This document shows positions 1,345-27,469 of a stretch of DNA of 32,000 nucleotides, piece by piece. The DNA comes from Kiritimatiella glycovorans (GTDB lineage: Bacteria; Verrucomicrobiota; Kiritimatiellia; Kiritimatiellales; Kiritimatiellaceae), in contig NZ_CP010904.1 in the NCBI RefSeq assembly GCF_001017655.1, positions 2,730,001-2,762,000 of the forward strand, in the 5' to 3' direction. The notes under the pieces were generated by a model that saw only the letters and a program-made list of their open reading frames with translations, was not told the origin of the DNA and ran no database searches. A program made the position numbers and the translations under genes. Position 1 is the stretch's first letter; each line of letters starts with the position of its first letter.

Positions 1345-3111
1345 TCAGAAGGACCAGATCACCGGTGCGAGGCCGACGCTGATGACGCCGAACAGCACAT
1401 TGAGCGCGAACCCGACCCGGAAGTAATCCGTAAAGCGGTAGCCCCCCGGCCCGTAGACCATCAGGTTGGTCTGGTAGCCGACCGGCGTGGCGAAACTTGC
1501 CGAGGCGGCCACGGCCACGCACATCACGAAGGGCAGCGGGCTGACGCCCAGGTTGCCGGCCATGGTCACCGCGACCGGAAAGATCAGCGCGGCCGCGGCG
1601 TTGTTCGTGATCAGCTCGGTGAACAGCGAGGTCGCCACGTAAACCCCCGCCAGCGCCAGCCACGGGTGGTTCCCCGCCGCGGCCAGCAGGCCTTCCGCGA
1701 TCCATCCGGCGGCTCCGGTTTGGTCGAGCGCGCGCCCCATCGCCAGCGCCGAGGCGATCACCAGCAGCACACTCCACTCGATGTTCGTGCGCGCCCGGCC
1801 CGGCGAGCAGCACCCGGTCAGCAGCATCAGCGCCGCGGCCAGCATCGCCGCCTGGAGCATGCTCAGCCAGCCGAACGCCGCGGCGGCCACCATGCCGGCA
1901 AAAATCAATCCGGCCGCGGGCGCGCGCGAAAACCGCACGGGCCGGGAGTCCTCGACTTCGCTGACGAGGTAGAAATCGCGCGAATCGCGCTGCCGCGGCG
2001 CGAATCCCGCATGCGCCTCCACCAGCAGCGTATCGCCCGGCCGCAGTACGATATCGCCGATCCGCCCCGGAATACGTTCTCCGCGGCGCGCCACGGCAAT
2101 CACCGCGGCGTTGTACCGGTCGCGGAACCGCCCCGCCCGGATACTGCGGCCCAGCAGCGGACAATGGTCCGAGACCACCACCTCCACCAGCCGCCGCTCG
2201 CGGTCCTCGCCGTCGAGCTTGAATACCTGGTCCGGCGCGGCCTGCAGCCCGCGCCGGGCGCGCAGGTCGCGGATCGACTCCACACTCCCCGCGAACACCA
2301 GCCGGTCGCGCTCGCGCAGCTCCGTATCCGGCGGCGGCGCCTGGATCAGGTGATCGCCGCGCACGATCTCGACGAGGTACCCGCCGGGCAGGTGGCGCAG
2401 CCCCGCGTCCTCGATCGTTTTCCCCGCCAGCGCGCTGCCTCCGGCGACCTCCATCTCCAGCGTGTACTCGCGCGTGTCGCCGAAGAGCCGGTCCGTTCCC
2501 TCGCGGTCGGGAATCATGCGGCGCCCGACGGTGGCCAGGTAGATCACGCCCGCGAGCGCGCAGGGCAACCCCAGCGCGGTGATCTCGAACACCCCCATGC
2601 CGCGCCCGAGGCGGTCCTGCATCAGACCGCTGACCACCAGGTTGGTGCTGGTGCCGATCAGCGTGCAGACGCCGCCGAAGATCGACGCGTAGCTCAGCGG
2701 CAACATGAACTTCGCCGGTCTGAAATCCAGACTCCGGCACCACTGCCGCACCACCGGGATGAATAGCGCCACCACCGGGGTGTTGTTCAGAAACGCGCTC
2801 AGCCCCATCACCGGCGCCATCAGCCGGAGCTGGCCGCCCCGTTCCGAAGACGGCCTCCCCAGCACGTGGTGACCGATCCAGAAGAGCGCCCCGGTCTCCT
2901 GGATTCCCGCCACCACGACATACAGCGTGCCCACCGTGATTACCCCCGGCGAACTGAACCCGGCCAGCGCCTCGCCGGGACCGAGCACCCCGGTCACCAG
3001 CAGCACCGCCAACCCGCCGAGAAAGACGAAATCCGCCGGCCAGCGCGCCATGGCCAGCAGGAGAAAGACTCCCGCGACCACGGAAACGGTGATGACGGCG
3101 TCCGGGGTCAT
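1345..3111 (-). CDS. SLC13/DASS-type anion permease with two central TrkA-C domains (putative sulfate or dicarboxylate transporter)
   Basis: 588-aa ORF with hydrophobic multi-pass N- and C-terminal halves. Two soluble TrkA-C-like segments lie between them (LEMEVAGGSALAGKTIEDAGLR..., VEVVVSDHCPLLGRSIRAGRFRDRY...). It sits between cysQ and sat on the same strand. Confidence 0.75.
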   Translation of the reverse strand: MTPDAVITVSVVAGVFLLLAMARWPADFVFLGGLAVLLVTGVLGPGEALAGFSSPGVITVGTLYVVVAGIQETGALFWIGHHVLGRPSSERGGQLRLMAPVMGLSAFLNNTPVVALFIPVVRQWCRSLDFRPAKFMLPLSYASIFGGVCTLIGTSTNLVVSGLMQDRLGRGMGVFEITALGLPCALAGVIYLATVGRRMIPDREGTDRLFGDTREYTLEMEVAGGSALAGKTIEDAGLRHLPGGYLVEIVRGDHLIQAPPPDTELRERDRLVFAGSVESIRDLRARRGLQAAPDQVFKLDGEDRERRLVEVVVSDHCPLLGRSIRAGRFRDRYNAAVIAVARRGERIPGRIGDIVLRPGDTLLVEAHAGFAPRQRDSRDFYLVSEVEDSRPVRFSRAPAAGLIFAGMVAAAAFGWLSMLQAAMLAAALMLLTGCCSPGRARTNIEWSVLLVIASALAMGRALDQTGAAGWIAEGLLAAAGNHPWLALAGVYVATSLFTELITNNAAAALIFPVAVTMAGNLGVSPLPFVMCVAVAASASFATPVGYQTNLMVYGPGGYRFTDYFRVGFALNVLFGVISVGLAPVIWSF

Positions 3112-3252: not shown

Positions 3253-4074
3253 TCACAGAACCCCCGGCACGGCGGCGATGAAGTACGGGTTGAGGAGGTC
3301 CTGCTTGTTGTAGCGCAGCGGTACGTCCGTCCCGTGCTGCAGGACCACGCCGCCCGCGGCTTCGACGACGGCCTGCGCGGCGGCGGTGTCCCATTCCATC
3401 GTGGGCGCAATACGGGGATACACATCCGCCGCGCCCTCGGCGACCAGGCAGAGCTTGAGCGAACTGCCCTTCGACACCAGTTCGGCCGGCCCGTATTGGG
3501 CCTCGAGTTCGGCAATAAACTGTTCCGTGGCCTCGTTGCGGTGAGAGCGGGAGGCGACCACGCGGATGCCGCCCGGGTCCCCCGGCCCCTCGCCGAGCGT
3601 TGGCAGCGCCGCTTCCTCGAGCGCACCGGGGAGATCGTCCGCCGAATGGAAGTGCGTGCCCTTCAGGAGCCTCCAGGCCCCTTCGCCCGCGACCCCGAGA
3701 TAGGCCGTGTTCAGCACGGGCGCGTAGACGGCCCCCATCACCGGCACACCGCTTTCGATCAGGGCGATGTTGACCGTGAATTCGCCGTTCTTTTTGATGA
3801 ATTCCTTTGTTCCGTCGAGCGGATCGACCAGCCAGAATCGTTCCCAGTCCTTCCGTTCCGCATAAGGGATCTCCGCGCTCTCTTCCGACAGGACCGGGAT
3901 TCCCGTGGGTTCAAGTTTCTTCAGGATGATGTCGTGCGACGCGCGGTCCGCCTCCGTCAGCGGCGAATCGTCGGCCTTGTGCTCCACGTCGAAATCGCGC
4001 GCGTAGACCTCCAGGATCGCCGCGGTGGCCTCGAGTTCGGCTTCAAGCAGCAGTCTCAGCTGTTCAGAGTTCAT
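3253..4074 (-). CDS. cysQ: 3'(2'),5'-bisphosphate nucleotidase CysQ (inositol monophosphatase family)
   Basis: 273 aa with IMPase/CysQ motifs (SPLTEADRASH, WLVDPLDGTKEF, VASRSH). A GAGGAG RBS lies 6-7 nt upstream of the ATG at 4074. Confidence 0.85.
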   Translation of the reverse strand: MNSEQLRLLLEAELEATAAILEVYARDFDVEHKADDSPLTEADRASHDIILKKLEPTGIPVLSEESAEIPYAERKDWERFWLVDPLDGTKEFIKKNGEFTVNIALIESGVPVMGAVYAPVLNTAYLGVAGEGAWRLLKGTHFHSADDLPGALEEAALPTLGEGPGDPGGIRVVASRSHRNEATEQFIAELEAQYGPAELVSKGSSLKLCLVAEGAADVYPRIAPTMEWDTAAAQAVVEAAGGVVLQHGTDVPLRYNKQDLLNPYFIAAVPGVL

Positions 4075-4089
4075 CGATGCTCCTCAGTT

Positions 4090-5115
4090 TTTGGGGGCGG
4101 GGGAACGGCGCTGCGCGCCTCGGGGGAAACGTGGCAACGGCGCTGCGCGCCTCGTGGGAACGCTTCGCTCGTGAAAACGGCGCTGCGCGCCTCGTAGGAA
4201 ACGGCCTTCGGCCTCGAAACAACGCTGCGCTCGTGGGAACGACATTCCCCCCGATTGCCACGATCTTCCTCGATTGCCACGAGGCCCGTCAGGGCCGTTG
4301 ACACGATCTTCCACGCTTCGCTCGTGAAAACGGCCTTCGGCCTCGAAACAACGCTGCGCTCGTGGGAACGACATTCCCCCCGATTGCCACGATCTTCCTC
4401 GATTGCCACGAGGCCCGTCAGGGCCGTTGACACGATCTTCCACGCTTCGCTCGGGGCAACGGCCTTCGGCCTCGGGGGGAACGTGGCAACGGCGCTGCGC
4501 GCCTCGTGAAAACGCTGCGCTCGTGAGGACGCTTCGCTCGAGGCAACGGCGCTGCGCGCCTCGTGGGAAACGGCCTTCGGCCTCGAAACAACGCTGCGCT
4601 CGTGGGAACGACATTCCCCCCGATTGCCACGATCTTCCTCGATTGCCACGAGGCCCGTCAGGGCCGTTGACACGATCTTCCACGCTTCGCTCGTGAAAAC
4701 GGCCTTCGGCCTCGGGGGGAACGTGGCAACGGCGCTGCGCGCCTCGGGGAAACGCTGCGCTCGTGAGAACGGCGCTGCGCGCCTCGGGGCAACGCTTCGC
4801 TCGGGGCAACGGCACGTCCCCCGACTGCCACGAGGCCCGAGAGGGCCGTTGACACGACTTCCCCCCGATTGCCACGAGGCCCGTAAGGGCCGTTGACACG
4901 ATCTTCCACGCTTCGCTCGGGGCAACGGCGCTGCGCGCCTCGGGGCAACGCTTCGCTCGGGGAAACGGCACGTCCCCCGACTGCCACGAGGCCCGAGAGG
5001 GCCGTTGACACGACTTCCCCCCGATTGCCACGAGGCCCGTAAGGGCCGTTGACACGACTTCCCCCCGACTTCCTCGAGGCCCGTCAGGGCCGTTGCCACG
5101 ACTCTCCCCCCGACT
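4090..5115 (-). repeat. Hairpin-module array 1 (about 1.0 kb; strand given is the one carrying the GNA triloops)
   Basis: Plus strand is a continuous concatenation of four triloop modules: GGCGCTGCGCGCC (8 by eye), GGCCTTCGGCC (5), GCTTCGC (8) and GCTGCGC (5). They are joined by linkers such as TCGTGGGAAAC, TCGTGAAAAC and TCGGGGCAAC. There are also 8 GGCCC-N4-GGGCC hairpins (loops GTCA, GTAA, GAGA). A 122-bp block is repeated identically at 4203, 4332 and 4572. The region is open in several frames on both strands, so it is not coding. Confidence 0.9.
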
Positions 5116-5233
5116 CATATCTCTCACTCAACCCGGACAGGCTCCCGCCCTCGGTCGATCGGGATCGCTTTCCCGAAACCTTCCCTGCGTGTCTTCAAAT
5201 GTCGGCGGGAACTCACGGTTCTCGCTTTGGTCT

Positions 5234-5800
5234 TCAGCCCCGGCGCCGCTCCAGCGGATGGCGGTCGTCGGTACTGACCGCCCGGGCGTCGAACTCGAGT
5301 TCGATGGTGCGCCCGAGCATTTCGAGAAGCACCTGCACGCGGCGGGTGGCGGACATGACGTTCGTCACCCGGACCCGCAGTCCCTGCAGGCGCCCCTCAC
5401 AGATCGTCACTTCCTCGCCGGGACGCGGGAGGTCCTCGATGACCGCCGTCTCGTCGACGCCGAGATCGCGGCGAAGGTCTTGAATAAATTCTTCCGGGAT
5501 GTCCGGTGTCTGCTCGCCGAAGTGGACGAGTCCCCGCACGCCGGGGGCGTAGCCGACCCCGCGCCACTCGTGCCGGCGGTCGAAGTGTGCAAAGACATAT
5601 CCCGGGAACAGCGCCTCCTGGAACCAGACGGGACCGCGTACCGTTTTCTTGCGAAAGCGCATTTGAGGTCCGAACACCTCGAATCCGCGCTCCTTAAGAA
5701 TCTTCCCCGCAATCCCCTCGCGACGGGTCTGCGTACGCACGCAATACCAGCGGCGTTCTTTCCCCTCCATCCCCGCCTTCATGTCCTCCATGCCCTTCAT
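5234..5800 (-). CDS. Specialised NusG-family paralog (RfaH/UpxY-like transcription antiterminator)
   Basis: NGN-like N-terminus (RRWYCVRTQTRREGIAGKILKERGFEVFGPQ, LFPGYVFAHF) and a KOW-like C-terminus (GEEVTICEGRLQGLRVRV). The first ATG is at 5800; the track start at 5806 is TTG. About 188 aa and standalone, not in the secE-nusG-rplK context. Confidence 0.7.
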   Translation of the reverse strand: MKGMEDMKAGMEGKERRWYCVRTQTRREGIAGKILKERGFEVFGPQMRFRKKTVRGPVWFQEALFPGYVFAHFDRRHEWRGVGYAPGVRGLVHFGEQTPDIPEEFIQDLRRDLGVDETAVIEDLPRPGEEVTICEGRLQGLRVRVTNVMSATRRVQVLLEMLGRTIELEFDARAVSTDDRHPLERRRG

Positions 5801-5812
5801 GGTCAATCTCTC

Positions 5813-6295
5813 TTAACGGTCGATCATCTTCATCACCAGCGGGAGCACGGTGGTGCCCTTCCGATGCCAGTTTTCCAGGTGTTCGACCTTCTCTTCCAGA
5901 AACGGGCGCTGCGCCTCCGGCATTGCGCCGACCAGTTCCCGCATACGCTTCAGGCGCTGTTCGCCGCTCTCCAGGTGCGGCTGGAGTTCTTCATCGACGA
6001 ATCCGGCGGCGATCCTGCGCAGCTGATCCTCCGCCACGTAATAGTCGCGGCGGGAGCCCGGGAGGTAGACCGGTTTCACGGCGCGGAATGAGCGCAGTAT
6101 GCGCAGGCCCTGGCTGACCGAGCCCTTACTGATGTTGAGGCGCGCCATGAGGTCGTCAATGCAGAGCGGTTCCGGGGAGATGAACAGGAGCCCGTAGAGT
6201 TCGCCCACCGAGCGGGGAAGATTGAGCATCCCGGCCATACGAACGAAGAGTTCGATCACCTCGCGCTCCAGATCGCTGATTGTGCGCTGTTCCAT
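5813..6295 (-). CDS. GbsR/MarR-family winged-helix transcriptional regulator
   Basis: Core ELYGLLFISPEPLCIDDLMARLNISKGSVSQGLRILRSFRAVKPVYLPGSRRDYYVAE matches the GbsR-type HTH pattern. I prefer the ATG at 6295 (MEQRTISDLE...) to the TTG at 6385, which overlaps the AT-rich palindrome. Confidence 0.7.
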   Translation of the reverse strand: MEQRTISDLEREVIELFVRMAGMLNLPRSVGELYGLLFISPEPLCIDDLMARLNISKGSVSQGLRILRSFRAVKPVYLPGSRRDYYVAEDQLRRIAAGFVDEELQPHLESGEQRLKRMRELVGAMPEAQRPFLEEKVEHLENWHRKGTTVLPLVMKMIDR

Positions 6296-6383
6296 CTTTG
6301 TGTCCACGGGCGTCCCTCCCGCGCGGGAGAGTGGCGGCATCTCATGCTTATGCGCCTGTATAGGACCGATTTGAAAGAGATGC

Positions 6384-6419
6384 AACCATATCGTTCAATT
6401 ATTATTGAACATTATGGTT
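6384..6419. promoter_or_regulatory. AT-rich imperfect palindrome, candidate operator/promoter of the GbsR-like regulator
   Basis: AACCATATCGTTCAAT-TATT-ATTGAACATTATGGTT has 16-nt arms matching at 14/16. It lies in a conspicuously AT-rich gap (6386-6473) of a GC-rich genome, directly upstream of the minus-strand regulator gene. Confidence 0.4.
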
Positions 6420-6473
6420 CGATGAGTTTCGGGTTAAAGGCGGATAGCGTTCTGACCACCTCAGCTCGGATAT

Positions 6474-7439
6474 CTACTCAACCTCCACCCCTCTGATCGC
6501 GGCGATGCCGAGCGCGAGCACCGCGACAAGGCAGGCGGCGGCGTAGGAGAGCACGGAACATGTGTACGACCACGGAACGCGGCCGCCGCCGGCGAGCCCG
6601 TCGACCACCCAGAAGTGCTGCCAGTCGGGGATGACGGCGTAGAGCACCCCCGCGATAAGATGAGTATCGGCGTGCCGGCCAAACAGGTAATACGAACTCA
6701 ATCCGAGCAGAAAGATCAATGTGACCGCGAACAGCGTGGGCAGCGTATCGAGCCGCACCGAGATGGCCAGCGCGATCGCCGAAAGCAGAAGCACCGCTGC
6801 GCCCACCAGCGTGGTCACCGGCCACAGCCTAAGGTCATAGGCCCCGCCGAACGCAGTCCATCCGCCCTGTGTATCCAGGAAACCCACAAAGACATAAGCG
6901 GCCGCCGCCGCCGCGACCGTCCCGGAAAAAGCCGCCGCCGGAAAGGACCGCCGCGTTGCGTAATTCAGCACCCCTCCGAGCAGGCATCCCGCCGCCGGGA
7001 CCGCCAGCAGCGGTACGCCCGCCCACCCGTCGAAGTGGAACGAAGGATGCGCCATGCGCGCACTCATGATTACCGCCATCGACATCGCCGCGCCGAACAG
7101 GACCAGCACCGCGCCCACCCCGAAGGCCTTGCCGAGAAAGAAGAGGGCGCGATTGACGGGCTTGCTCAGGATCCCGGACGCCGTGCCGCCCCGCAACTCG
7201 TGCGCGAGCGTCGTTCCCGCGGCGTAAGCGCCGAGCAGGAGACCGCTCACCAGAAACACCGCCAGGCCGCTGTCGCGCACCATCCGCTCCGACTCGCCAA
7301 GCGTATACAGGGAGAACAGCGGCAACAGTCCTACCAGCAGGATGCCAAGCGTCGTCACCAGCATCGTCACCGGCTGACGCACGACCTCCCGGACCGTCAA
7401 CCCGGCCACGACGAAGAACTGTCGGAATAGGATCGTCAT
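6474..7439 (-). CDS. Multi-pass membrane protein, ABC-2-type transporter permease-like (no ATPase partner in window)
   Basis: About 321 aa from the ATG at 7439 (MTILFRQFFVVAGLTVREVV...), hydrophobic throughout. The track ORF extends to 7736 only because it reads into array 2; that N-terminal 99 aa is the repetitive RP-rich array translation. Confidence 0.55.
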   Translation of the reverse strand: MTILFRQFFVVAGLTVREVVRQPVTMLVTTLGILLVGLLPLFSLYTLGESERMVRDSGLAVFLVSGLLLGAYAAGTTLAHELRGGTASGILSKPVNRALFFLGKAFGVGAVLVLFGAAMSMAVIMSARMAHPSFHFDGWAGVPLLAVPAAGCLLGGVLNYATRRSFPAAAFSGTVAAAAAAYVFVGFLDTQGGWTAFGGAYDLRLWPVTTLVGAAVLLLSAIALAISVRLDTLPTLFAVTLIFLLGLSSYYLFGRHADTHLIAGVLYAVIPDWQHFWVVDGLAGGGRVPWSYTCSVLSYAAACLVAVLALGIAAIRGVEVE

Positions 7440-7489
7440 GGATTTCACAAAACAGGATGTAGCATGGAAGAAACCGCGAAACAACAGAG

Positions 7490-8210
7490 GGTTCGGGGAA
7501 ATCGCGGGAACGGCCTTCGGCCTCGGAGGGGGAACGTGGAAACGGCGCTGCGCGCCTCGTGGGGAACGTGGAAACGGCGCTGCGCGCCTCGTGGGAACGC
7601 TGCGCTCGGGGAAACGGCCTTCGGCCTCGGAACAACGCTTCGCTCGTGGGAACGGCGCTGCGCGCCTCGTGGGAAACGGCCTTCGGCCTCGAAACAACGC
7701 TGCGCTCGTGGAAACAGCACGTCCCCCGACTGCCACGATCTTCCCCGATTGCCACGAGGCCCGTCAGGGCCGTTGCCACGACTCTCTTCCCGACTTCCTC
7801 GAGGCCCGTCAGGGCCGTTGCCACGGTTTCCCCGATTGCCACGATCTTCCACGCTTCGCTCGTGGGAACGGCGCTGCGCGCCTCGGGGAAACGCTTCGCT
7901 CGAGTAAACGGCCTTCGGCCTCGGGGGGATCGTGGAAACGGCCTTCGGCCTCGGAACAACGCTTCGCTCGTGGGAACGGCGCTGCGCGCCTCGTGGGAAA
8001 CGGCCTTCGGCCTCGGAACAACGCTTCGCTCGTGAAAACGACATTCCCCCCGACTTTCTCGAGGCCCCTGGGCCGTTGCCACGACTCCCCCCGACTTTCA
8101 CGAGGCCCGTCAGGGCCGTTGCCACGACTTCCCCCCCCCACTGCCACGAGGCCCGAGAGGGCCGTTGCCACGACTCCCCCCCCGACTTCCCCCGATCTCC
8201 ACGATTCCGG
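7490..8210 (-). repeat. Hairpin-module array 2 (about 0.72 kb; same plus-strand orientation as array 1)
   Basis: Same module set: GGCGCTGCGCGCC (5), GGCCTTCGGCC (6), GCTTCGC (5), GCTGCGC (2). There are 4 intact and 1 degenerate GGCCC-N4-GGGCC hairpins, mostly in the right third (8040-8200). Poly-C runs there vary in length. A 58-bp stretch (GGCGCTGCGCGCCTCGTGGGAAACGGCCTTCGGCCTCGAAACAACGCTGCGCTCGTGG) is identical to array 1. Confidence 0.9.
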
Positions 8211-8331
8211 CGACTCATTTTGATCTTACTTTACCACCGGCACGGCATCTGACATGATGGGGGAGTGACGGAAAACTGAACCGGGACGGCCCGGATGAAA
8301 TGGTTGAAGTGGACTGAAAGGAGGACACGGA

Positions 8332-8682
8332 ATGGCGGATTATCATGAAGATCAACTCAGCGAAGCGTCGATGAACGCCTCGCGCGCATTGAAGAGTGTG
8401 AAGGAGGAGATCGAGGCGGTCGACTGGTACAACCAGCGTGTGGACGCTACGAATGATCAGGAGCTTGCGAAGATTCTGGCCCACAACCGCGACGAAGAGA
8501 TTGAGCACGCCTGCATGGTGCTGGAGTGGCTGCGACGCAACATGCCCGGCTGGGACGAGCAGATGAAAACCTATCTGTTTACGCAGGGCGACATCACTCT
8601 TCTCGAAGAAGAGGGTGAAGGCGGCGAAGAGGGCGGAGAGGCCCCCGCGGGCGGCGATCTGGCCATCGGAAAAATCGAGTAA
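8332..8682 (+). CDS. Encapsulated ferritin-like cargo protein (EncFtn) with C-terminal encapsulin targeting peptide
   Basis: 116 aa with the ferritin-like EEIEH di-iron motif region (NRDEEIEHACMVLEWLRR). A Gly/Glu-rich linker precedes the C-terminal GGDLAIGKIE, which resembles family-1 cargo-loading peptides. AAAGGAGG RBS lies upstream. The gene sits immediately 5' of the shell gene. Confidence 0.85.
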   Translation: MADYHEDQLSEASMNASRALKSVKEEIEAVDWYNQRVDATNDQELAKILAHNRDEEIEHACMVLEWLRRNMPGWDEQMKTYLFTQGDITLLEEEGEGGEEGGEAPAGGDLAIGKIE

Positions 8683-8697
8683 GAGGGGAGGCAACGC

Positions 8698-9492
8698 ATG
8701 GATAATCTCAGGAAAGAACTCGCGCCGATCTCCGAAGAGGGTTGGCAGGAAATCAATGAGCAGGCCCGGCGCGTACTGCGCAACAATCTCAGCGCCCGCC
8801 GTTTCGCGGACGTCGACGGGCCGAAGGGCTGGGACTGCACTTCCGTCTCGCTCGGTCGCCTGAATGTTCCGGAAAAGCAGGCGGACCATGACGTGCGCTA
8901 CGGGGTCCACCTCGTGCAGCCGCTCGTCGAGGCACGGGTGTCGTTCAAGCTGAAGACGTGGGAACTCGACAACGCCGTTCGTGGCGCGGAGGACATCGAC
9001 CTCGAACCGCTCGAGGACGCCGCCGCGAAAATCGCCGCCTTCGAGGACGCCGCCGTGTATTACGGGTTCGATGCGGGCTGCATCCGGGGTCTCAAGGCGG
9101 AGTCGGATCACAAGGCGCTCAAGTGGCCGGAAAAGGCCGAGGACGCGCTCGGGACCGTTCAGGACGGCGTTCAGGCGCTGCGAGCCGCATCGGTCGAAGG
9201 ACCGTACAACCTGGTCATCGACGCCAAGCGGTGGAAGGCCGTGGAAAGCCATGTCGGCGGCTATCCGCTCAGGAACCGCATTCAGGACGCCCTCGGCGGA
9301 AAGGTCATCGTATCACCCAACGTCAAAAACGCCTTCCTCGTCTCCGGACGCGGCGGCGATTTCCGACTGACGCTCGGCGCCGATCTCTCGATCGGCTACG
9401 AAGGCCACGATACCGAATCGGTCCAGCTCTACCTCACCGAATCGTTCACCTTCCAGGTGCTCGACCCGGCGGCGGCGGTCGTGCTCGCGTAA
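8698..9492 (+). CDS. Family 1 encapsulin nanocompartment shell protein (HK97-fold, linocin M18-like)
   Basis: 264 aa. MDNLRKELAPISEEGWQEINEQARRVLRNNLSARRFADVDGPKGWD... matches the conserved family-1 encapsulin N-terminus. Length is typical. The start is 16 nt after the EncFtn stop, with a GAGGGGAGG RBS. Confidence 0.9.
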   Translation: MDNLRKELAPISEEGWQEINEQARRVLRNNLSARRFADVDGPKGWDCTSVSLGRLNVPEKQADHDVRYGVHLVQPLVEARVSFKLKTWELDNAVRGAEDIDLEPLEDAAAKIAAFEDAAVYYGFDAGCIRGLKAESDHKALKWPEKAEDALGTVQDGVQALRAASVEGPYNLVIDAKRWKAVESHVGGYPLRNRIQDALGGKVIVSPNVKNAFLVSGRGGDFRLTLGADLSIGYEGHDTESVQLYLTESFTFQVLDPAAAVVLA

Positions 9493-9517
9493 GCGGGCGG
9501 GAAAAAACCGCGGCAGG

Positions 9518-10240
9518 CGGGGAGGTCGTGGAAATCGGGGGGATCGTGGCAATCGGGGAAGTCGTGTCAACGGCCCTCACGGGCCTCGTGGCAGTCGGGG
9601 GAAATGTCGTTCCCCCGAGGCGCGCAGCGCCGTTGCCACGTTCCCCCCCCGAGGCCGAAGGCCGTTGCCTCGAGCGCAGCGTTCCCCCGAGGCGCGCAGC
9701 GCCGTTGCCTCGAGCGAAGCGTGGAAGATCGTGGCAATCGGGGAAGTCGTGTCAACGGCCCTTACGGGCCTCGTGGCAGACGGGGGAAATGCCGTTCCCA
9801 CGAGGCGCGCAGCGCCGTTTTCACGTTTCCCCCCCGAGGCCGAAGGCCGTTGCCTCGAGCGAAGCGTGGAAAATCGTGGCAGTCGAGGAAGTCGTGTCAA
9901 CGGCCCTTACGGGCCTCGTGGCAGACGGGGGAAATGCCGTTCCCACGAGGCGCGCAGCGCCGTTTTCACGTTCCCCCCCCGAGGCCGAAGGCCGTTTCCA
10001 CGAGCGAAGCGTGGAAGATCGTGGCAATCGAGGAAGTCGTGTCAACGGCCCTCTCGGGCCTCGTGGCAGTCGGGGGAAATGCCGTTCCCACGAGGCGCGC
10101 AGCGCCGTTTTCACGTTTCCCCCCCGAGGCCGAAGGCCGTTTCCACGAGCGAAGCGTCCCCCCCGAGCGAAGCGTTGCCCCGAGGCGCGCAGCGCCGTTG
10201 CCACGTTCCCCCCTCACGTTCCCCCGAGCCACGCAGCGTT
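9518..10240 (+). repeat. Hairpin-module array 3 (about 0.72 kb; inverted relative to arrays 1 and 2)
   Basis: Plus strand carries the reverse complements of the array 1/2 modules: GGCGCGCAGCGCC (6), GGCCGAAGGCC (4), GCGAAGC (5), GCGCAGC (1). It also has 4 GGCCC-N4-GGGCC hairpins (loops TCAC, TTAC, TTAC, TCTC). A 145-bp higher-order unit starts at 9746, 9891 and 10036; the first two copies differ at about 6 positions. Confidence 0.9.
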
Positions 10241-10268
10241 TGTCTGCCAAGAACCCTGAGGAATCTCC

Positions 10269-12188
10269 ATGAACTGGTCTGAACTGCTGAACGAATCCCA
10301 GGCCGCCGCGGTCACGGCGCCCGACGGACCCGTACTCGCCATTGCCGCCGCGGGTACCGGCAAGACACGCACGCTTACCTGCCGGGTCGCCCACCTGGTC
10401 TGCGAACGTGAAATCCCGCCCGACCGAATTCTGCTGCTGACGTTCACCAACAAGGCGGCCGACGAGATGCTCGAACGGGCGCGTTCGATGGCGGGCGACG
10501 AAGTCAGCGGGCTTTGGGGCGGGACGTTTCATCATCTTGCCAACCGGCTGCTGCGGCGACACGCCGACCGGCTCGGGTTCGGGCTCGACTACACCATCCT
10601 CGACTCCGACGACACGAAAAAGCTGCTGCGCACCGTCACGCTCGAACTGGGCCTGAAGGGAAAGCACTTCCCGAAACCCGGCGTGCTCTCCAGCGTGTTC
10701 GGTGTGGCCGCGAATACCGAGCGCGGGATCGAGGACCTCGCCCGGGAGTGGTTCGAGGACAGCGACGTGCAGCCCGAACAGGTGGTCGACGTCTACCATG
10801 AATACGAACAGCGTAAACGGTCGCTCAACTCGATGGATTTCGACGATCTTCTCATTCACGCCCTGAACCTGATCCGCGATCAGCAGGACCTGCGCGAACA
10901 GTACCAGGAACGTTTTCGCTATATCCTGGTGGACGAATACCAGGACACCAGCGCCATCCAGGCGGAGTGGGTCGATCTACTCGCCGGCGGACACCGCAAT
11001 CTGATGGTGGTCGGCGACGACTTCCAGAGCATCTACTCGTGGCGCGGCGCGAATTACCGCAATATCCTGCATTTCCAGGAACGCTACCCGGACGCCCGGG
11101 TCTATAAACTTGAGACCAATTACCGGAGCAGCCCCGAGATCCTCGAGGTCGCCAACCGCTGCATCGCCGGTAACCCGCACCAGTTTCAGAAAAACCTGCG
11201 CGCCGTGCGCGAGCACGCTCCCAGGCCCCGGCTAGCCCGCATGCTCGACAGCCGCCGGCAGGCGAGGTACGTCCTTCAGCGCGTACGCGAGTTCGAGCGC
11301 AACGGCGTTTCGCTCGAAGACATGGCCGTCCTCTACCGCTCCCACTTCCACGCCCTCGACCTGCAGCTCGAACTCACCCGCGAAAACCTCCCCTTTACCC
11401 TGACCTCCGGCGTCCGCTTCTTCGAGCAGGCCCACATAAAAGACGTCTGCACCCTGCTGCGACTGCTGGAGAATCCGGGCGACGAACTGGCGTTCGCACG
11501 CCTGCTCGAAATGTTCCCCAAAGTCGGCGCCAAAACGGCGCAGAAGATTTGGGATAAGATCGGGCGCCGGTTCCGTGCACGCTCTCCCGACGAGTGTGTG
11601 CGGGTGCGCGATTCGCTTCCGAGCGCCGCCAAGGCCTCGTGGATGGCCGCCGAACCGATCTTCCTCGCCTACCGCGAGGAAGGACTGGACGAGGATCCGG
11701 GCGAGATCGTCTTTCGCTTCGTCAGGGAATTCTACCGCGAATACGCCGTGGAGACCTTCGATAACGCCCGCAACCGGCTCGAAGATATCGATGCGCTGAT
11801 CGACTTCACGTCGCGCTACACCAGTACGCAGCAATTCCTCAGCGAGACCGCCCTCCTGAGCAGCCTCGAGTCCACCACCTCCGGTCCCGGCGCCGACGCC
11901 GGCGGACTCCGCCTCAGCACGATCCACCAGGCCAAGGGGCTCGAATGGAAGATCGTCTTCGTGATCTGGCTCAGCGAGGAGATGTTCCCCAGTGCCCGCG
12001 CGGAAGCCGACACGGAAAAACTGGCCGAGGAACGCCGGCTGTTCTACGTCGCCACCACCCGCGCCGAAGACCGCCTGTTTCTCTGCACCCCGGAACGCAA
12101 GCAGACCCGCGACGGCGGACTGATGCCCTGCGAACCCTCGCGCTTCCTCCGCGAACTCCCCGCCGAATGCGTCGAACTGGAACTCTAG
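10269..12188 (+). CDS. UvrD/PcrA/Rep-family ATP-dependent DNA helicase
   Basis: 639 aa with a Walker A motif (AAAGTGKTRTL), LVDEYQDTS (motif II), SIYSWRGA and the C-terminal TIHQAKGLEW and YVATTRAEDRL motifs of SF1 UvrD-like helicases. Confidence 0.85.
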   Translation: MNWSELLNESQAAAVTAPDGPVLAIAAAGTGKTRTLTCRVAHLVCEREIPPDRILLLTFTNKAADEMLERARSMAGDEVSGLWGGTFHHLANRLLRRHADRLGFGLDYTILDSDDTKKLLRTVTLELGLKGKHFPKPGVLSSVFGVAANTERGIEDLAREWFEDSDVQPEQVVDVYHEYEQRKRSLNSMDFDDLLIHALNLIRDQQDLREQYQERFRYILVDEYQDTSAIQAEWVDLLAGGHRNLMVVGDDFQSIYSWRGANYRNILHFQERYPDARVYKLETNYRSSPEILEVANRCIAGNPHQFQKNLRAVREHAPRPRLARMLDSRRQARYVLQRVREFERNGVSLEDMAVLYRSHFHALDLQLELTRENLPFTLTSGVRFFEQAHIKDVCTLLRLLENPGDELAFARLLEMFPKVGAKTAQKIWDKIGRRFRARSPDECVRVRDSLPSAAKASWMAAEPIFLAYREEGLDEDPGEIVFRFVREFYREYAVETFDNARNRLEDIDALIDFTSRYTSTQQFLSETALLSSLESTTSGPGADAGGLRLSTIHQAKGLEWKIVFVIWLSEEMFPSARAEADTEKLAEERRLFYVATTRAEDRLFLCTPERKQTRDGGLMPCEPSRFLRELPAECVELEL

Positions 12189-12229
12189 TGTCACTCAGGT
12201 CTCAAGTTTCAGGTCTCCCACTCCCTCTT

Positions 12230-12253
12230 ACTCTGACTCTGACTCTGACTCTG
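12230..12253. repeat. Hexanucleotide microsatellite (ACTCTG)x4
   Basis: Four perfect tandem ACTCTG units flanked by related CTCTTA and ATTCTT hexamers. They lie in the helicase-flippase intergenic region, just right of a CTCAAGTTTCAGG motif (12210-12222). Confidence 0.8.
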
Positions 12254-12283
12254 ATTCTTCCCCACGTCCCTTCTTCCCGCCCC

Positions 12284-25782: not shown

Positions 25783-25879
25783 GATTAGGAAGTGTCCCGT
25801 TGACTGTTGAAACTTGAAGGCGGTCTCCTGAGCGTCCATGTTGGACGCTCGGGGCAAACCAACCCGAAAGGAGACCGCC

Positions 25880-27469
25880 ATGAGTGACAATAGCGTCCTT
25901 GAAGCCCTTGGACAAGTTGAACCGTCTGCAGCAGGAGATGTTTTCCGTGACTGGCTGCGTGGTGAAATGCGAACCCTGATCGCCGATATTCTGGCTGAAG
26001 AGGTCACAGAATTGTGTGGTCCGGCCTACAAGCCGGCAGGGGACAGAGGCTGCCGACGTGCCGGCGGAACCCGCGTAGGACTTCGAATTGACGGTATTGA
26101 TGAGGAGATCCGCAAGCCGCGTGTACGTCGCCATGAGGCAGACACATCGAAGGAGGTCAGGCTTAAAAGTTACGACGCGGTCAACAGGGCCGACGACCTT
26201 CGTGACCGTATCTTGCGTGCCACAGCTGCCGGAGTCAGTTCACGTGATCAGAAAACCTTGTATCCCGATTCAGCGCCCGGACGCAGCAGGGTTTCCCGCG
26301 CCTGGATTGTCGAGGGCCGACAGCGCATACAGAAGCTCCGTGACCGCGACCTGAAGTCCGAGAGGTTCTTCTGCATGCTGCTGGACGGCATTGTACTGTC
26401 CGAGGATCTCAGCGCCATTGTGGGGCTGGGCATTACGCTGGACGGCCGCAAAGTTATGCTGGATTTTGAAATAGGCGCACAGGAATCGACAGAAGTGTGT
26501 GACGCATTGCTCGACCGCAGCCGTTCTCATTATGGCCGCATTCCGACCGCGGACGGCGTGGCAGCCGTCCCTCCCGAGTCGATATCCGACGCATTTTCGG
26601 GCACTGGGAGGGTCGGGTGCCACCCCGACCGAAAAGGGTGAAGCCATAATGAGAATCGCTGGCTCGACCGGCTTGTCCACCGCGGTCTTGAGTTCGAGGG
26701 CGATCCGTTGGCGGTTCTCGACGGTTCTCGGGCACTTCATAACAGCGTCTTGAAGCATTTTCCGCGAGCGCGCATTCAACGATGCCTGGTGCATAAGGAA
26801 CGAAATATTAAGCGTTGTCTCTCCAGGCGTCATCACGGCAGCGTGAGCGACGTTTTCAAGCGTCTCCGCTCCGTGGAAGGCGAAGAAGCCGGACGTGAAG
26901 CACTCGCCGATCTGGAACGCTTTCTGAGCCGGCACAGCCACAAGGCCCTGGAATCCCTGCACGAGGCCGGTGAGGAGCTCATTACGGTTCACAAGCTGAA
27001 TGCGCCGTCCACTCTACACACCACGTTGACGAACACAAACTGCATCGAGAACCCGTTCCGAAACACACGCGCAAAAATCGGGCGGGTGAAGCGTTGGCGC
27101 GCAGAGACGGATCAGGCGGAACGCTGGCTGGCCTATTCGCTTCTGAGGGCCGAGAAAGGGTTCCGTCGAATCAAAGGCTATCGTCAGATCCCGGTGCTTT
27201 TGAAATCCCTGGGCTGGCCATCGGAAGCTGTTGAGGCGTCGCTCCGCTCCGCCCTTGGCCCTCCGGGCCATCCCGCCTCCGGCGGGAACGGGCTCCACTC
27301 CACGACGCCTCACCCCCAGGCAGAGAGCGAAGCGAACTGCCGAACAGGGACTGGACAAGTGAATGACAAGGAACTACATCGAAATGAAGACCGAGACCGC
27401 CAACGAGTTTCAACAGGATTCGGGACATCCCCACGGATTATGTTCACCCCTTCATGCTCTTTATGGTGA
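25880..27469 (+). pseudogene. IS256-family (Mutator-like DDE) transposase, disrupted by MITE insertion
   Basis: ATG at 25880 after an AAAGGAG RBS. IS256 signatures are present: LLDGIVL..., AVLDGSRALHNSVLKHFPRARIQRCLVHKERN, and TNCIENPFRN. The frame is the same before (to 26517) and after (from 26663) the insert. Reading into the MITE hits a stop at 26641. Confidence 0.85.
26518..26661. mobile_element. 144-bp MITE, copy 2 (9-bp TSD GCTCGACCG), inserted in the transposase ORF
   Basis: Left TIR CAGCCGTTCTCATTATGGC, right end GCCATAATGAGAATCGCTG. The target GCTCGACCG is duplicated at 26509-26517 and 26662-26670. The duplication repeats the LDR codons of the transposase on both sides. Confidence 0.85.

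What the first reader, a model, noticed from the sequence alone, without database searches (positions are those of the whole stretch)
4075..10268. Arrays fill entire intergenic gaps and always present the GNA strand in the sense of the gene immediately downstream
Array 1 ends about 20-30 nt upstream of the cysQ RBS/ATG (minus strand). Array 2 ends about 50-70 nt upstream of the ABC-2 permease ATG (minus strand). Array 3 ends about 30 nt upstream of the helicase ATG (plus strand) and begins about 25 nt after the encapsulin stop. In all three cases the mRNA-sense strand of the downstream gene is the GNA-triloop strand, and the array orientation flips when gene direction flips. Little or no room remains for a conventional promoter between array and start codon. 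So cysQ, the permease and the helicase are either read through the array from upstream genes or driven from promoters inside the arrays. The arrays would then be long structured 5' leaders or intercistronic RNAs. The displaced non-template DNA strand would also be the minihairpin strand. Three of three cases is suggestive but a small sample.
Basis: inference. Interest (0 to 1): 0.75.

Follow-up and report, generated by a model that had tools for sequence, protein, structure and literature searches.

The report
Nested-palindrome repeat arrays between Kiritimatiella genes
Three 0.7-1 kb non-coding arrays of tiny hairpin repeats, so far seen only in Kiritimatiella glycovorans, fill three gene gaps; they do point the same way as the next gene, but only two of the three cases are informative, so the proposed orientation rule is unproven.

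Summary
The arrays are real: A1 ~4094-5118, A2 ~7495-8218, A3 ~9524-10241. They take up 81-93% of three intergenic gaps. All 60 GNA-triloop hairpins lie on the sense strand of the adjacent downstream gene.

Three qualifications apply:
- Each array also holds inverted units. These are 16 GGCCC-GNNA-GGGCC hairpins, plus one decayed copy, whose G..A loop is on the other strand. A super-unit is therefore a REPIN/BIME-like nested palindrome that folds equally well on either strand.
- A2 sits in a divergent gap, where either orientation has a gene downstream in sense. Only A1 and A3 test the rule (chance 1 in 4).
- Each array grew by local tandem duplication, so it counts as one orientation event.

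The source is Kiritimatiella glycovorans. The family was found in no other organism. At least six arrays exist in the genome, all miscalled as hypothetical proteins in GenBank.

A near-identical strain keeps only one edge unit at the A2 site. A1 lies inside an operon conserved across relatives, about 20 nt after a conserved ops-like element that follows an RfaH-like NusG paralog gene. Read-through transcription of A1 is therefore plausible.

Verdict: a new variant of REP-like repeats.

The parts
4094..5118 (-). Array A1: ~1.0 kb, 26 GNA-triloop units on the minus strand and 8 inverted GNNA (H5) units. It lies between the NusG-paralog leader and cysQ.
   Evidence: GenBank miscalls it as the ORF L21SP4_02319
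7495..8218 (-). Array A2: ~0.72 kb, 18 GNA units on the minus strand and 5 inverted units (4 GNNA plus one decayed copy). It lies in the divergent gap between the permease and EncFtn.
   Evidence: miscalled as the ORF L21SP4_02323; interior absent from the 260 bp readable in a close relative
9524..10241 (+). Array A3: ~0.72 kb, 16 GNA units on the plus strand and 4 inverted units. It lies between the encapsulin and the UvrD-type helicase.
   Evidence: miscalled as the ORF L21SP4_02326
3253..4074 (-). cysQ (3'(2'),5'-bisphosphate nucleotidase), the gene downstream of A1
5119..5233 (-). Unique leader after the NusG-paralog stop codon. It holds the conserved element GGTTTC-hairpin-GACCGAGGGCGGGAGCCTGT; the ops-like 12-mer GGCGGGAGCCTG is at 5138-5149.
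5234..5806 (-). RfaH/UpxY-like specialised NusG paralog (GenBank version 188 aa)
5813..6385 (-). Small ArsR-type HTH regulator. The true start is probably an internal ATG near 6296 or 6340. The conserved operator TGTTCA-N8-TGAACg lies upstream at 6392-6411.
6474..7439 (-). Membrane permease, the gene on the sense side of A2
8222..8331 (+). EncFtn promoter and 5'UTR region, conserved in the close relative up to the edge of A2. Inferred promoter: TTTACC (8230-8235), 17-nt spacer, CATGAT (8253-8258).
8332..9492 (+). EncFtn and family-1 encapsulin operon. A2 and A3 flank it in inverted orientation.
10269..12188 (+). UvrD/PcrA-type helicase, the gene downstream of A3

Best explanation
**What the arrays are.** They are non-coding, lineage-restricted REP/REPIN/BIME-like repeats. 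The basic unit is CGA, a 2-5 bp G+C stem, a G(N)NA loop, the complementary stem, then GTT. A super-unit of 129-240 nt has an inverted, G-rich arm (block B, holding the GNNA hairpin H5). This is followed by a forward, C-rich arm (block A, holding three to six GNA minihairpins). The two arms are imperfect reverse complements, so each super-unit is a long nested palindrome.

**How they arose and are read.** Each array grew where it sits by tandem duplication of its own super-unit (shown). A1, and probably A3, lie inside co-directional transcription units and are transcribed by read-through as long, structured, untranslated intercistronic RNA (inferred).

**Why they are tolerated (inferred).**
- The RNA is tightly folded.
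- For A1, RNA polymerase has just passed an ops-like element that follows the gene for an RfaH-like antiterminator.

**Likely effect (inferred).** Any effect on the cell is probably the generic REP-type modulation of mRNA stability and downstream expression.

**Orientation.** The co-orientation with downstream genes seen here is two informative events and is not yet a rule.
For: **Unit and super-unit structure**
- The two arms are complementary. One long hairpin per super-unit is the predicted minimum-energy fold in both RNA and DNA.
- The whole A3 gap (9493-10268) folds better than shuffled sequence on both strands, with z-scores of -5.5 and -7.4.

**Growth in place**
- Super-units are 95-96% identical within an array and 74-88% identical between arrays. 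All between-array matches run in the same polarity.

**Not protein-coding**
- Units are 17, 21 and 23 nt long.
- The same hairpin is read in all three frames within one called ORF (GAQRR, EARSAV, RRAAP).
- A3 is open in all three sense frames.
- The array ORFs carry GenBank accessions but no RefSeq (WP_) accession.

**Restricted distribution**
- A search of 5.8 billion proteins found only six hits, all from K. glycovorans.
- DNA scans of genome and metagenome collections found only single chance matches.

**Fast turnover**
- A ~97-98% identical strain shares the EncFtn promoter region and one block-B unit at the junction. It has no GNA hairpins in the 260 bp upstream.

**Operon context of A1**
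- The conserved operon and conserved leader element are shown.
- The NusG paralog scores best against RfaH and UpxY models.

**Precedent**
- REP dimers in opposite orientation that fold into larger structures are described. So are their position between unidirectional ORFs, probable transcription, and species-specific families (PMC3733652).
- A related MAG has its own GTAG-tagged REPIN-like tandem array filling a co-directional gap.
Against: - There is no transcript evidence of any kind.
- The unpaired tags are CGA and GTT, not the GTAG or CGTC that define the known REP superfamilies.
- Half of the GNA triloop units (26 of 60) have stems of only 2 bp.
- No RAYT or other Y1 transposase gene is in the window.
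- No single, dispersed units occur in the 32 kb. The family looks like a few large arrays, not a dispersed population.
- A2 lies between divergent genes, an unusual position for REPs.
- The strict retention of a G..A loop across five stem types hints at selection on loop geometry. A purely selfish or neutral model does not explain that.
Confidence: 0.55

Rival explanations
1. One reading: array polarity is selected to match transcription. The arrays would be functional 5' leaders or intercistronic RNAs, or would carry internal promoters, and would control cysQ, the permease and the helicase.
For: - All three arrays have the same polarity relative to the adjacent start codon: block B first, block A last.
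- All 60 GNA units are on the sense strand.
- The orientation flips within one replication arm.
- The distance to the start codon is short for A1 and A3.
- A related MAG's array has its GCA-loop hairpin on the sense strand of both flanking genes.
Against: - Only two cases are informative, a 1 in 4 chance.
- A2 is uninformative, and its interior is absent from the 260 bp readable in a ~97-98% identical strain.
- Relatives run the same operon without any array.
- Folding energy shows no strand preference.
- No promoter-like sites were found inside the arrays.
- The sense strand is only weakly G-rich.
Confidence: 0.2
2. The arrays act at the DNA level. Candidate roles are arrays of binding or cleavage sites for a hairpin-recognising protein (a RAYT-like Y1 transposase, gyrase, or a nucleoid protein), cruciform or supercoiling barriers between transcription units, or recombination substrates.
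For: - Conserved unpaired flanks (CGA..GTT) around variable stems with a kept G..A loop resemble the tag-plus-hairpin sites of REPs.
- d(C-GNA-G) loops are exceptionally stable in DNA (own knowledge: Hirao and colleagues, d(GCGAAGC)).
- A2 and A3 are inverted repeats around the encapsulin operon. A1 and A2 are direct repeats around the permease, regulator and NusG-paralog block.
Against: - No candidate protein gene is in the window; the only transposase is a disrupted Mutator/IS256-type gene ~15 kb away.
- No dispersed single units were found.
- This cannot be separated from an RNA-level role with sequence alone.
Confidence: 0.15
3. The arrays work with the adjacent RfaH-like NusG paralog. The non-template-strand C-GNA-G minihairpins would act as repeated ops-like pause, loading or retention sites.
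For: - An RfaH/UpxY-like gene lies directly upstream of A1.
- A conserved ops-like element, GGCGGNAGCCTG, lies ~20 nt before A1.
- RfaH reads a small non-template-strand hairpin with a C:G-closed GGTA loop (PMC5995543).
Against: - Orthologous paralogs with the ops-like element occur in four of five relatives sampled, and none of the five has arrays.
- A2 and A3 have no ops-like element upstream and lie outside that operon.
- The conserved operator shows the regulator and NusG-paralog unit has its own start region.
Confidence: 0.06
4. The arrays encode real Arg/Gly/Pro-rich proteins, as annotated in GenBank (L21SP4_02319, _02323, _02326).
For: - Long sense-strand ORFs span each array, and stop codons are fewer on the sense strand (10 against 29).
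- An array-spanning ORF ends on or within 5 nt of the next gene's ATG in each case: an ATGA overlap at cysQ (ORF 4071-5099) and at the helicase (ORF 9604-10272), and a TGA 5 nt before the permease ATG. The GenBank-annotated A1 ORF is a different frame and stops 10 nt before the cysQ ATG.
Against: - Unit lengths are not multiples of three.
- One DNA motif is read in all three frames within one ORF.
- Several frames are open at once, including the antisense strand of A2.
- There are no homologues outside these arrays among 5.8 billion proteins.
- The array ORFs have no RefSeq accession.
Confidence: 0.03

Closest known systems
REPINs and GTAG/CGTC-tagged REP dimers (Bertels & Rainey 2011, PMC3116915; Di Nocera et al. 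2013, PMC3733652)
   Same: - Short extragenic palindromes with unpaired conserved flanks.
- Paired in opposite orientation so that the pair folds into a larger hairpin.
- Species-specific families, clustered copies, and mostly between unidirectional genes.
   Different: - The tag is CGA..GTT, not GTAG or CGTC.
- Stems are only 2-5 bp, with strict G(N)NA loops.
- Several forward hairpins per inverted one.
- Very long tandem arrays at few loci instead of many dispersed copies.
- A RAYT partner is unknown.
BIMEs of E. coli (mosaics of Y and Z REPs with linker motifs; own knowledge)
   Same: - Modular intergenic mosaics of palindromic units in both orientations.
- Located within or at the ends of operons and transcribed.
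- Linked to mRNA stability, termination and gyrase/IHF binding.
   Different: - The arrays here are two to three times longer.
- Units do not alternate one for one.
- No sequence similarity.
MIRUs of Mycobacterium tuberculosis (Supply et al. 1997; own knowledge)
   Same: - Tandem repeats in intercistronic gaps of operons, co-oriented with the flanking genes.
- ORFs that end at the next gene's start codon.
   Different: - MIRU units keep a reading frame and overlap both neighbouring genes.
- Here unit lengths break the frame and the repeats are palindromic.
ops / JUMPStart element read by RfaH (PMC5995543)
   Same: - A C:G-closed G..A mini-loop on the non-template strand.
- A real ops-like 12-mer (GGCGGGAGCCTG against GGCGGTAGCGTG) sits just upstream of A1, after an RfaH-like gene.
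   Different: - The array units themselves are not ops copies.
- The T at position 6, which RfaH recognises, is not conserved in the Kiritimatiellales element.
d(GCGAAGC)-type GNA DNA minihairpins (Hirao, Yoshizawa and colleagues; own knowledge)
   Same: The H3 unit is exactly GCGAAGC. H1, H2 and H4 are C-GNA-G loops on longer or equal stems.
   Different: These are known as isolated motifs, for example at phage origins and in a few promoters, and not as arrays of dozens.

Membership tests
REP / REPIN (RAYT-mobilised) | Short extragenic imperfect palindrome (20-40 bp, stem of 5 bp or more) | tested here: inconclusive
   Units are 17-23 nt. H1 and H5 have 5-bp stems, H2 has 4 bp, and H3 and H4 have only 2 bp.
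REP / REPIN (RAYT-mobilised) | Unpaired GTAG (or CGTC) tag at one end | tested here: not met
   The flanks are CGA and GTT in all 77 units. GTAG tags are present in the related MAG's array.
REP / REPIN (RAYT-mobilised) | Two units in inverted orientation that fold into one long hairpin | tested here: met
   Block B is an inverted copy of block A. The minimum-energy fold is one ~120-nt hairpin per super-unit.
REP / REPIN (RAYT-mobilised) | Many copies dispersed around the genome | not testable with these tools
   The genome is withheld from the collections. At least 6 array loci are inferred from miscalled ORFs. No single units occur in the window.
REP / REPIN (RAYT-mobilised) | A cognate RAYT (Y1 transposase) gene flanked by units | not testable with these tools
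   None is in the window. The rest of the genome could not be read.
BIME | Mosaic of palindromic units in alternating orientation with conserved linkers, in transcribed extragenic DNA | tested here: inconclusive
   Both orientations and conserved linkers are present. Alternation is about 1 inverted to 3-6 forward. Transcription was not tested.
MIRU-type intercistronic repeats | Frame-preserving tandem units whose ORFs overlap the stop and start of the flanking genes | tested here: not met
   Unit lengths of 17, 21 and 23 nt break the frame. ORFs end at or near the downstream ATG but do not overlap the upstream stop.
ops / JUMPStart | GGCGGTAGnnTG on the non-template strand of an operon leader | tested here: not met
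   The array units are not ops. One ops-like site, matching 10 of 12 positions, is at 5138-5149 upstream of A1 and nowhere near A2 or A3.
CRISPR array | Identical direct repeats separated by unique spacers | tested here: not met
   There are no unique spacers; the whole array is repeat.
Rfam RNA families | Match to any curated covariance model | tested here: not met
   No hits at the gathering threshold over the whole window, and none at E up to 1 over 3900-10400.

The most novel reading that the evidence does not exclude
The arrays are not junk. They would be arrays of C-G(N)NA-G minihairpins that extrude from the non-template DNA strand during transcription. There they would be read by the neighbouring RfaH-like NusG paralog or another single-strand hairpin reader. 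That would make them multi-copy ops-like pause or retention tracts that set expression of the downstream genes, and it would explain why the G..A loop and the polarity are kept.
Probability: 0.06. Interest if true: 0.85.

Novelty: new variant of a known kind. Interest (0 to 1): 0.4.

Why it matters
- If array polarity tracks transcription across the whole genome, this would be a rare case of a palindromic repeat family with a strand-specific role. It would give a tractable system for studying how kilobase-long untranslated structured inserts are tolerated inside bacterial operons.
- A1 sits next to an RfaH-like antiterminator gene and a conserved ops-like element, which makes that question directly testable.
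- As things stand, the practical value is more modest. It is a previously undescribed, species-restricted repeat family in the type species of Kiritimatiellota. Six GenBank 'hypothetical proteins' (three in this window, three elsewhere) should be removed, and there is a candidate ops-like leader element in this group.

Tried and rejected
**Searches that did not reach more arrays**
- A genome-collection scan with the 19-mer gave 66 single chance hits and no arrays; the source genome is not searchable there.
- A metagenome scan with a two-part pattern gave 22 chance hits.
- Exact-protein look-ups for window proteins failed because the source genome is withheld. The genome-wide orientation tally could therefore not be run.
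- Three other relatives' helicase neighbourhoods (66 kb) contain no arrays.
- Literature searches for the organism plus repeats, and for GCGAAGC plus intergenic, found nothing on these arrays.

**Explanations tested and rejected**
- Replication-direction explanation: rejected. GC skew stays negative across nearly all of the window and does not switch sign at the array flip.
- Strand preference from folding energy: none. The antisense strand folds slightly better as RNA, and the two strands are equal as DNA.
- Avoidance of Rho loading as the reason for polarity: weak. The sense-strand G-C skew is only +0.01 to +0.10.
- Promoter and terminator consensus scans found nothing inside the arrays, at background rate. 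These scans may not suit this phylum.
- Rfam: no match, even at permissive thresholds.
- Protein-coding reading: rejected.

Full report
**1. Source and gene map**

The helicase at 10269-12188 is 100% identical to the Kiritimatiella glycovorans protein on a 2,949,723-bp contig, and the next best hit is 61-62% identical. The exact sequences of CysQ, the permease, EncFtn and the encapsulin are all in the collection as K. glycovorans GenBank proteins, which confirms their start codons.

The genes by Pfam/NCBIfam are:

| Coordinates | Strand | Gene |
|---|---|---|
| 1345-3111 | - | DASS/CitMHS transporter with TrkA_C domain |
| 3253-4074 | - | CysQ |
| 5234-5806 | - | NusG paralog, scoring best against RfaH (79.8 bits) and UpxY, below family cut-offs |
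| 5813-6385 | - | ArsR-type HTH regulator |
| 6474-7439 | - | membrane permease |
| 8332-8682 | + | EncFtn |
| 8698-9492 | + | family-1 encapsulin |
| 10269-12188 | + | UvrD-type helicase |

**2. The observation**

- Exactly three arrays occur in the window. The 19-mer CGAGGCGCGCAGCGCCGTT occurs 19 times against 0 in shuffles: 13 on the minus strand in A1 and A2, and 6 on the plus strand in A3.
- Boundaries read from the sequence are A1 ~4094-5118, A2 ~7495-8218 and A3 ~9524-10241. These cover 88%, 81% and 93% of their gaps.
- I scanned with the strict grammar CGA, perfect stem, 3-4 nt loop, complementary stem, then GT. This finds 26, 18 and 16 GNA-triloop units on the strand that is sense for the adjacent downstream gene. 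The types are GGCGC-GCA-GCGCC, GGCC-GAA-GGCC, GC-GAA-GC and GC-GCA-GC.
- None of the 19 weak chance matches elsewhere in the window has a G..A loop.

**3.

- Each array also holds units of the same grammar on the opposite strand: GGCCC-GTCA/GTAA/GAGA/GTGA-GGGCC. There are 8, 4 (plus one decayed copy) and 4 of them.
- Around them lie hairpin-less 18-nt units (tcgtggcaatcggggggaag). These are the reverse complement of the hairpin-less forward spacer (gttgccacgttccccccga).
- In the sense direction, every super-unit is therefore an inverted arm (block B) followed by a forward arm (block A).
- ViennaRNA folds a 145-nt super-unit into one long imperfect hairpin in which the two arms pair:

| Molecule | Sense | Antisense |
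|---|---|---|
| RNA, 145-nt super-unit | -74.6 kcal/mol | -76.7 kcal/mol |
| DNA, 145-nt super-unit | -43.8 kcal/mol | -43.3 kcal/mol |
| RNA, whole A3 gap (9493-10268) | -399 kcal/mol | -427 kcal/mol |

- Both strands of the whole A3 gap fold well beyond shuffled sequence.
- These are nested palindromes with an overall polarity but no thermodynamic strand preference. The standard energy parameters do not include the special stability of d(C-GNA-G) loops.

**4. Statistics of the orientation claim**

- Super-units are 95-96% identical within an array but only 74-88% identical, with indels, between arrays. Each array therefore expanded where it sits and represents one orientation event.
- A2 lies between divergent genes, so either orientation would put a gene downstream in sense.
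- That leaves two informative events, with a chance probability of 0.25.
- GC skew is negative across nearly the whole window, with no sign switch near 7.4-8.3 kb. The flip of array orientation is therefore not a replication-arm effect, which removes one rival.
- The 56-73 nt between A2 and the permease ATG could hold a promoter.

**5. Not protein-coding**

- GenBank calls ORFs across all three arrays on the GNA-sense strand (L21SP4_02319, _02323, _02326). They have no RefSeq accession.
- Unit lengths are 17, 21 and 23 nt. The same hairpin is translated in all three frames within a single ORF (GAQRR, EARSAV, RRAAP in P0127).
- A3 is open in all three sense frames, and A2 is also open on the antisense strand.

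**6. Distribution**

- A search with the A2 ORF product against 5.8 billion proteins found six proteins, all from K. glycovorans. Three are the window arrays; the others are L21SP4_00612, _01247 and _02129.
- The peptides of those three carry the sense-frame signatures of the same hairpins. The genome therefore has at least six arrays, half of them in this 6-kb stretch.
- DNA pattern scans of 185,579 species genomes and of the metagenome collection found only isolated chance matches.
- The source genome itself is not readable through the look-up tools. The decisive genome-wide tally could not be made.

**7. Turnover**

- A 904-bp ENA contig (L067) carries EncFtn and the start of the encapsulin gene at ~97-98% nucleotide identity.
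- Homology upstream of EncFtn runs to window position ~8222, the edge of A2, and then stops.
- The relative keeps one block-B unit at the junction in the same orientation (3 mismatches, 0 expected by chance). Its next 250 bp are lower-GC degenerate repeats with no GNA hairpins.
- The hairpin-rich interior of A2 is therefore not conserved even between very close strains. That argues against an indispensable leader function.

**8. Context of A1**

- Five relatives carry an ortholog of the NusG paralog at 45-52% identity. They share a co-directional cluster: a small regulator (165-176 aa) and the NusG paralog, then a gap, then GlmS. The gap is 117-119 nt in four relatives and 40 nt in one.
- Downstream of GlmS, two relatives have the CitMHS/TrkA_C transporter, one of them followed by CysQ and PAPS genes. 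Two others have nucleotide-sugar genes, and the fifth contig ends at GlmS.
- No arrays occur in the three of these loci that were scanned for tandem repeats.
- K. glycovorans keeps a ~115-nt unique stretch after the paralog's stop codon. It aligns with that ancestral gap in four of the relatives. It holds a conserved element, GGTTTC, a hairpin with compensatory changes, then GACCGAGGGCGGNAGCCTGT.
- The core of the element, GGCGGGAGCCTG at 5138-5149, matches the E. coli ops element GGCGGTAGCGTG at 10 of 12 positions. It is the only exact match to GGCGGNAGCNTG in the window.
- RfaH reads ops as a small non-template-strand hairpin (PMC5995543).
- A1 begins ~20 nt after this element, where relatives have the ribosome-binding site of the next gene. 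A1 is thus an insertion into a conserved operon leader.
- Read-through by a termination-resistant polymerase is a reasonable inference. It would explain how 1 kb of untranslated RNA is tolerated.
- A conserved operator, TGTTCA-N8-TGAACA, lies upstream of the small regulator in K. glycovorans (6392-6411) and in relatives. That unit therefore has its own start region, and A2 need not be its leader.

**9. Relatives have other repeats**

- One Kiritimatiellales MAG (L090/L091, helicase 61% identical) has a 92-nt tandem array. It fills the co-directional gap between its NUDIX and BrkB/Rrf2 genes.
- Each unit is a pair of GTAG-tagged hairpins in inverted orientation, a classical REPIN-like doublet. 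One hairpin is GGCGCATC-GCA-GATGCGCC on the sense strand.
- An orthologous site in another relative has no gap at all.
- Three other relatives showed no arrays in 66 kb.

**10. Comparison with known families**

- The closest known kind is the REP/REPIN/BIME class (PMC3733652). Shared features are short extragenic palindromes with unpaired conserved ends and pairs in opposite orientation that fold into larger structures. Others are a position between unidirectional genes, plausible transcription, and species-specific families.
- The differences are the CGA..GTT flanks instead of GTAG or CGTC, very short stems and a strict G(N)NA loop. There are also several forward units per inverted one, kilobase tandem arrays at few loci, and no known transposase partner.
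- I therefore file it as a new variant of a known kind, not as a member of the REPIN family.

**11. Verdict**

- The coordinates and distances are correct, and the arrays are a real, previously undescribed repeat family.
- The headline rule rests on two informative events, and it overlooks that the arrays carry units of both orientations.
- Read-through transcription is well motivated for A1, plausible for A3 and open for A2.

Noticed in passing
window 5119-5233 (minus strand), core at 5138-5149: A conserved leader element follows the RfaH-like NusG paralog gene: GGTTTC, a hairpin with compensatory changes, then GACCGAGGGCGGNAGCCTGT. It is shared with four Kiritimatiellales relatives and has no Rfam match. 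Its core resembles the E. coli ops element at 10 of 12 positions.
   Followed up: partly
window 6392-6411; L095-L097 ~7470-7497: The palindrome TGTTCA-N8-TGAACA lies upstream of the small regulator gene that precedes the NusG paralog. It is conserved in K. glycovorans and three relatives and is probably an operator.
   Followed up: partly
window 4084-5127, 7445-8218, 9604-10272: The GenBank 'hypothetical proteins' L21SP4_02319, _02323 and _02326 are ORFs read across the repeat arrays, and so are _00612, _01247 and _02129 elsewhere in the genome. They are almost certainly spurious.
   Followed up: yes
window 8222-8331: The EncFtn upstream region is conserved in a ~97-98% identical strain. It has a promoter-like TTTACC-N17-CATGAT (8230-8258). 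It also has a 5'UTR hairpin, CCGGG-ACGG-CCCGG (8281-8294), whose loop differs but whose stem is kept in the relative.
   Followed up: partly
window 7495-8218 vs 9524-10241, and 4094-5118 vs 7495-8218: A2 and A3 are ~0.7-kb inverted repeats bracketing the EncFtn-encapsulin operon. A1 and A2 are direct repeats bracketing the permease, regulator and NusG-paralog block. Both pairs are potential substrates for inversion or deletion by recombination.
   Followed up: no
L090 8062-8567; L091 1-384: A Kiritimatiellales MAG has a 92-nt tandem array of GTAG-tagged inverted hairpin pairs (REPIN-like) between its NUDIX and BrkB/Rrf2 genes. One assembly has a scaffold gap inside the array, and the other assembly's contig ends in it.
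   Followed up: partly
window 4071-4074 and 10269-10272: One array-spanning ORF ends in an ATGA overlap with the cysQ start codon, and another with the helicase start codon. At the permease, the array ORF's TGA stop is 5 nt before the ATG. This could be chance, given the short unique spacers.
   Followed up: partly
window 25838-27469: A Mutator/IS256-family transposase is split into two ORFs (267 and 253 aa) and appears disrupted.
   Followed up: no
window 12225-12258: A short CTCTGA hexamer tandem repeat (5.7 copies) lies just after the helicase gene.
   Followed up: no
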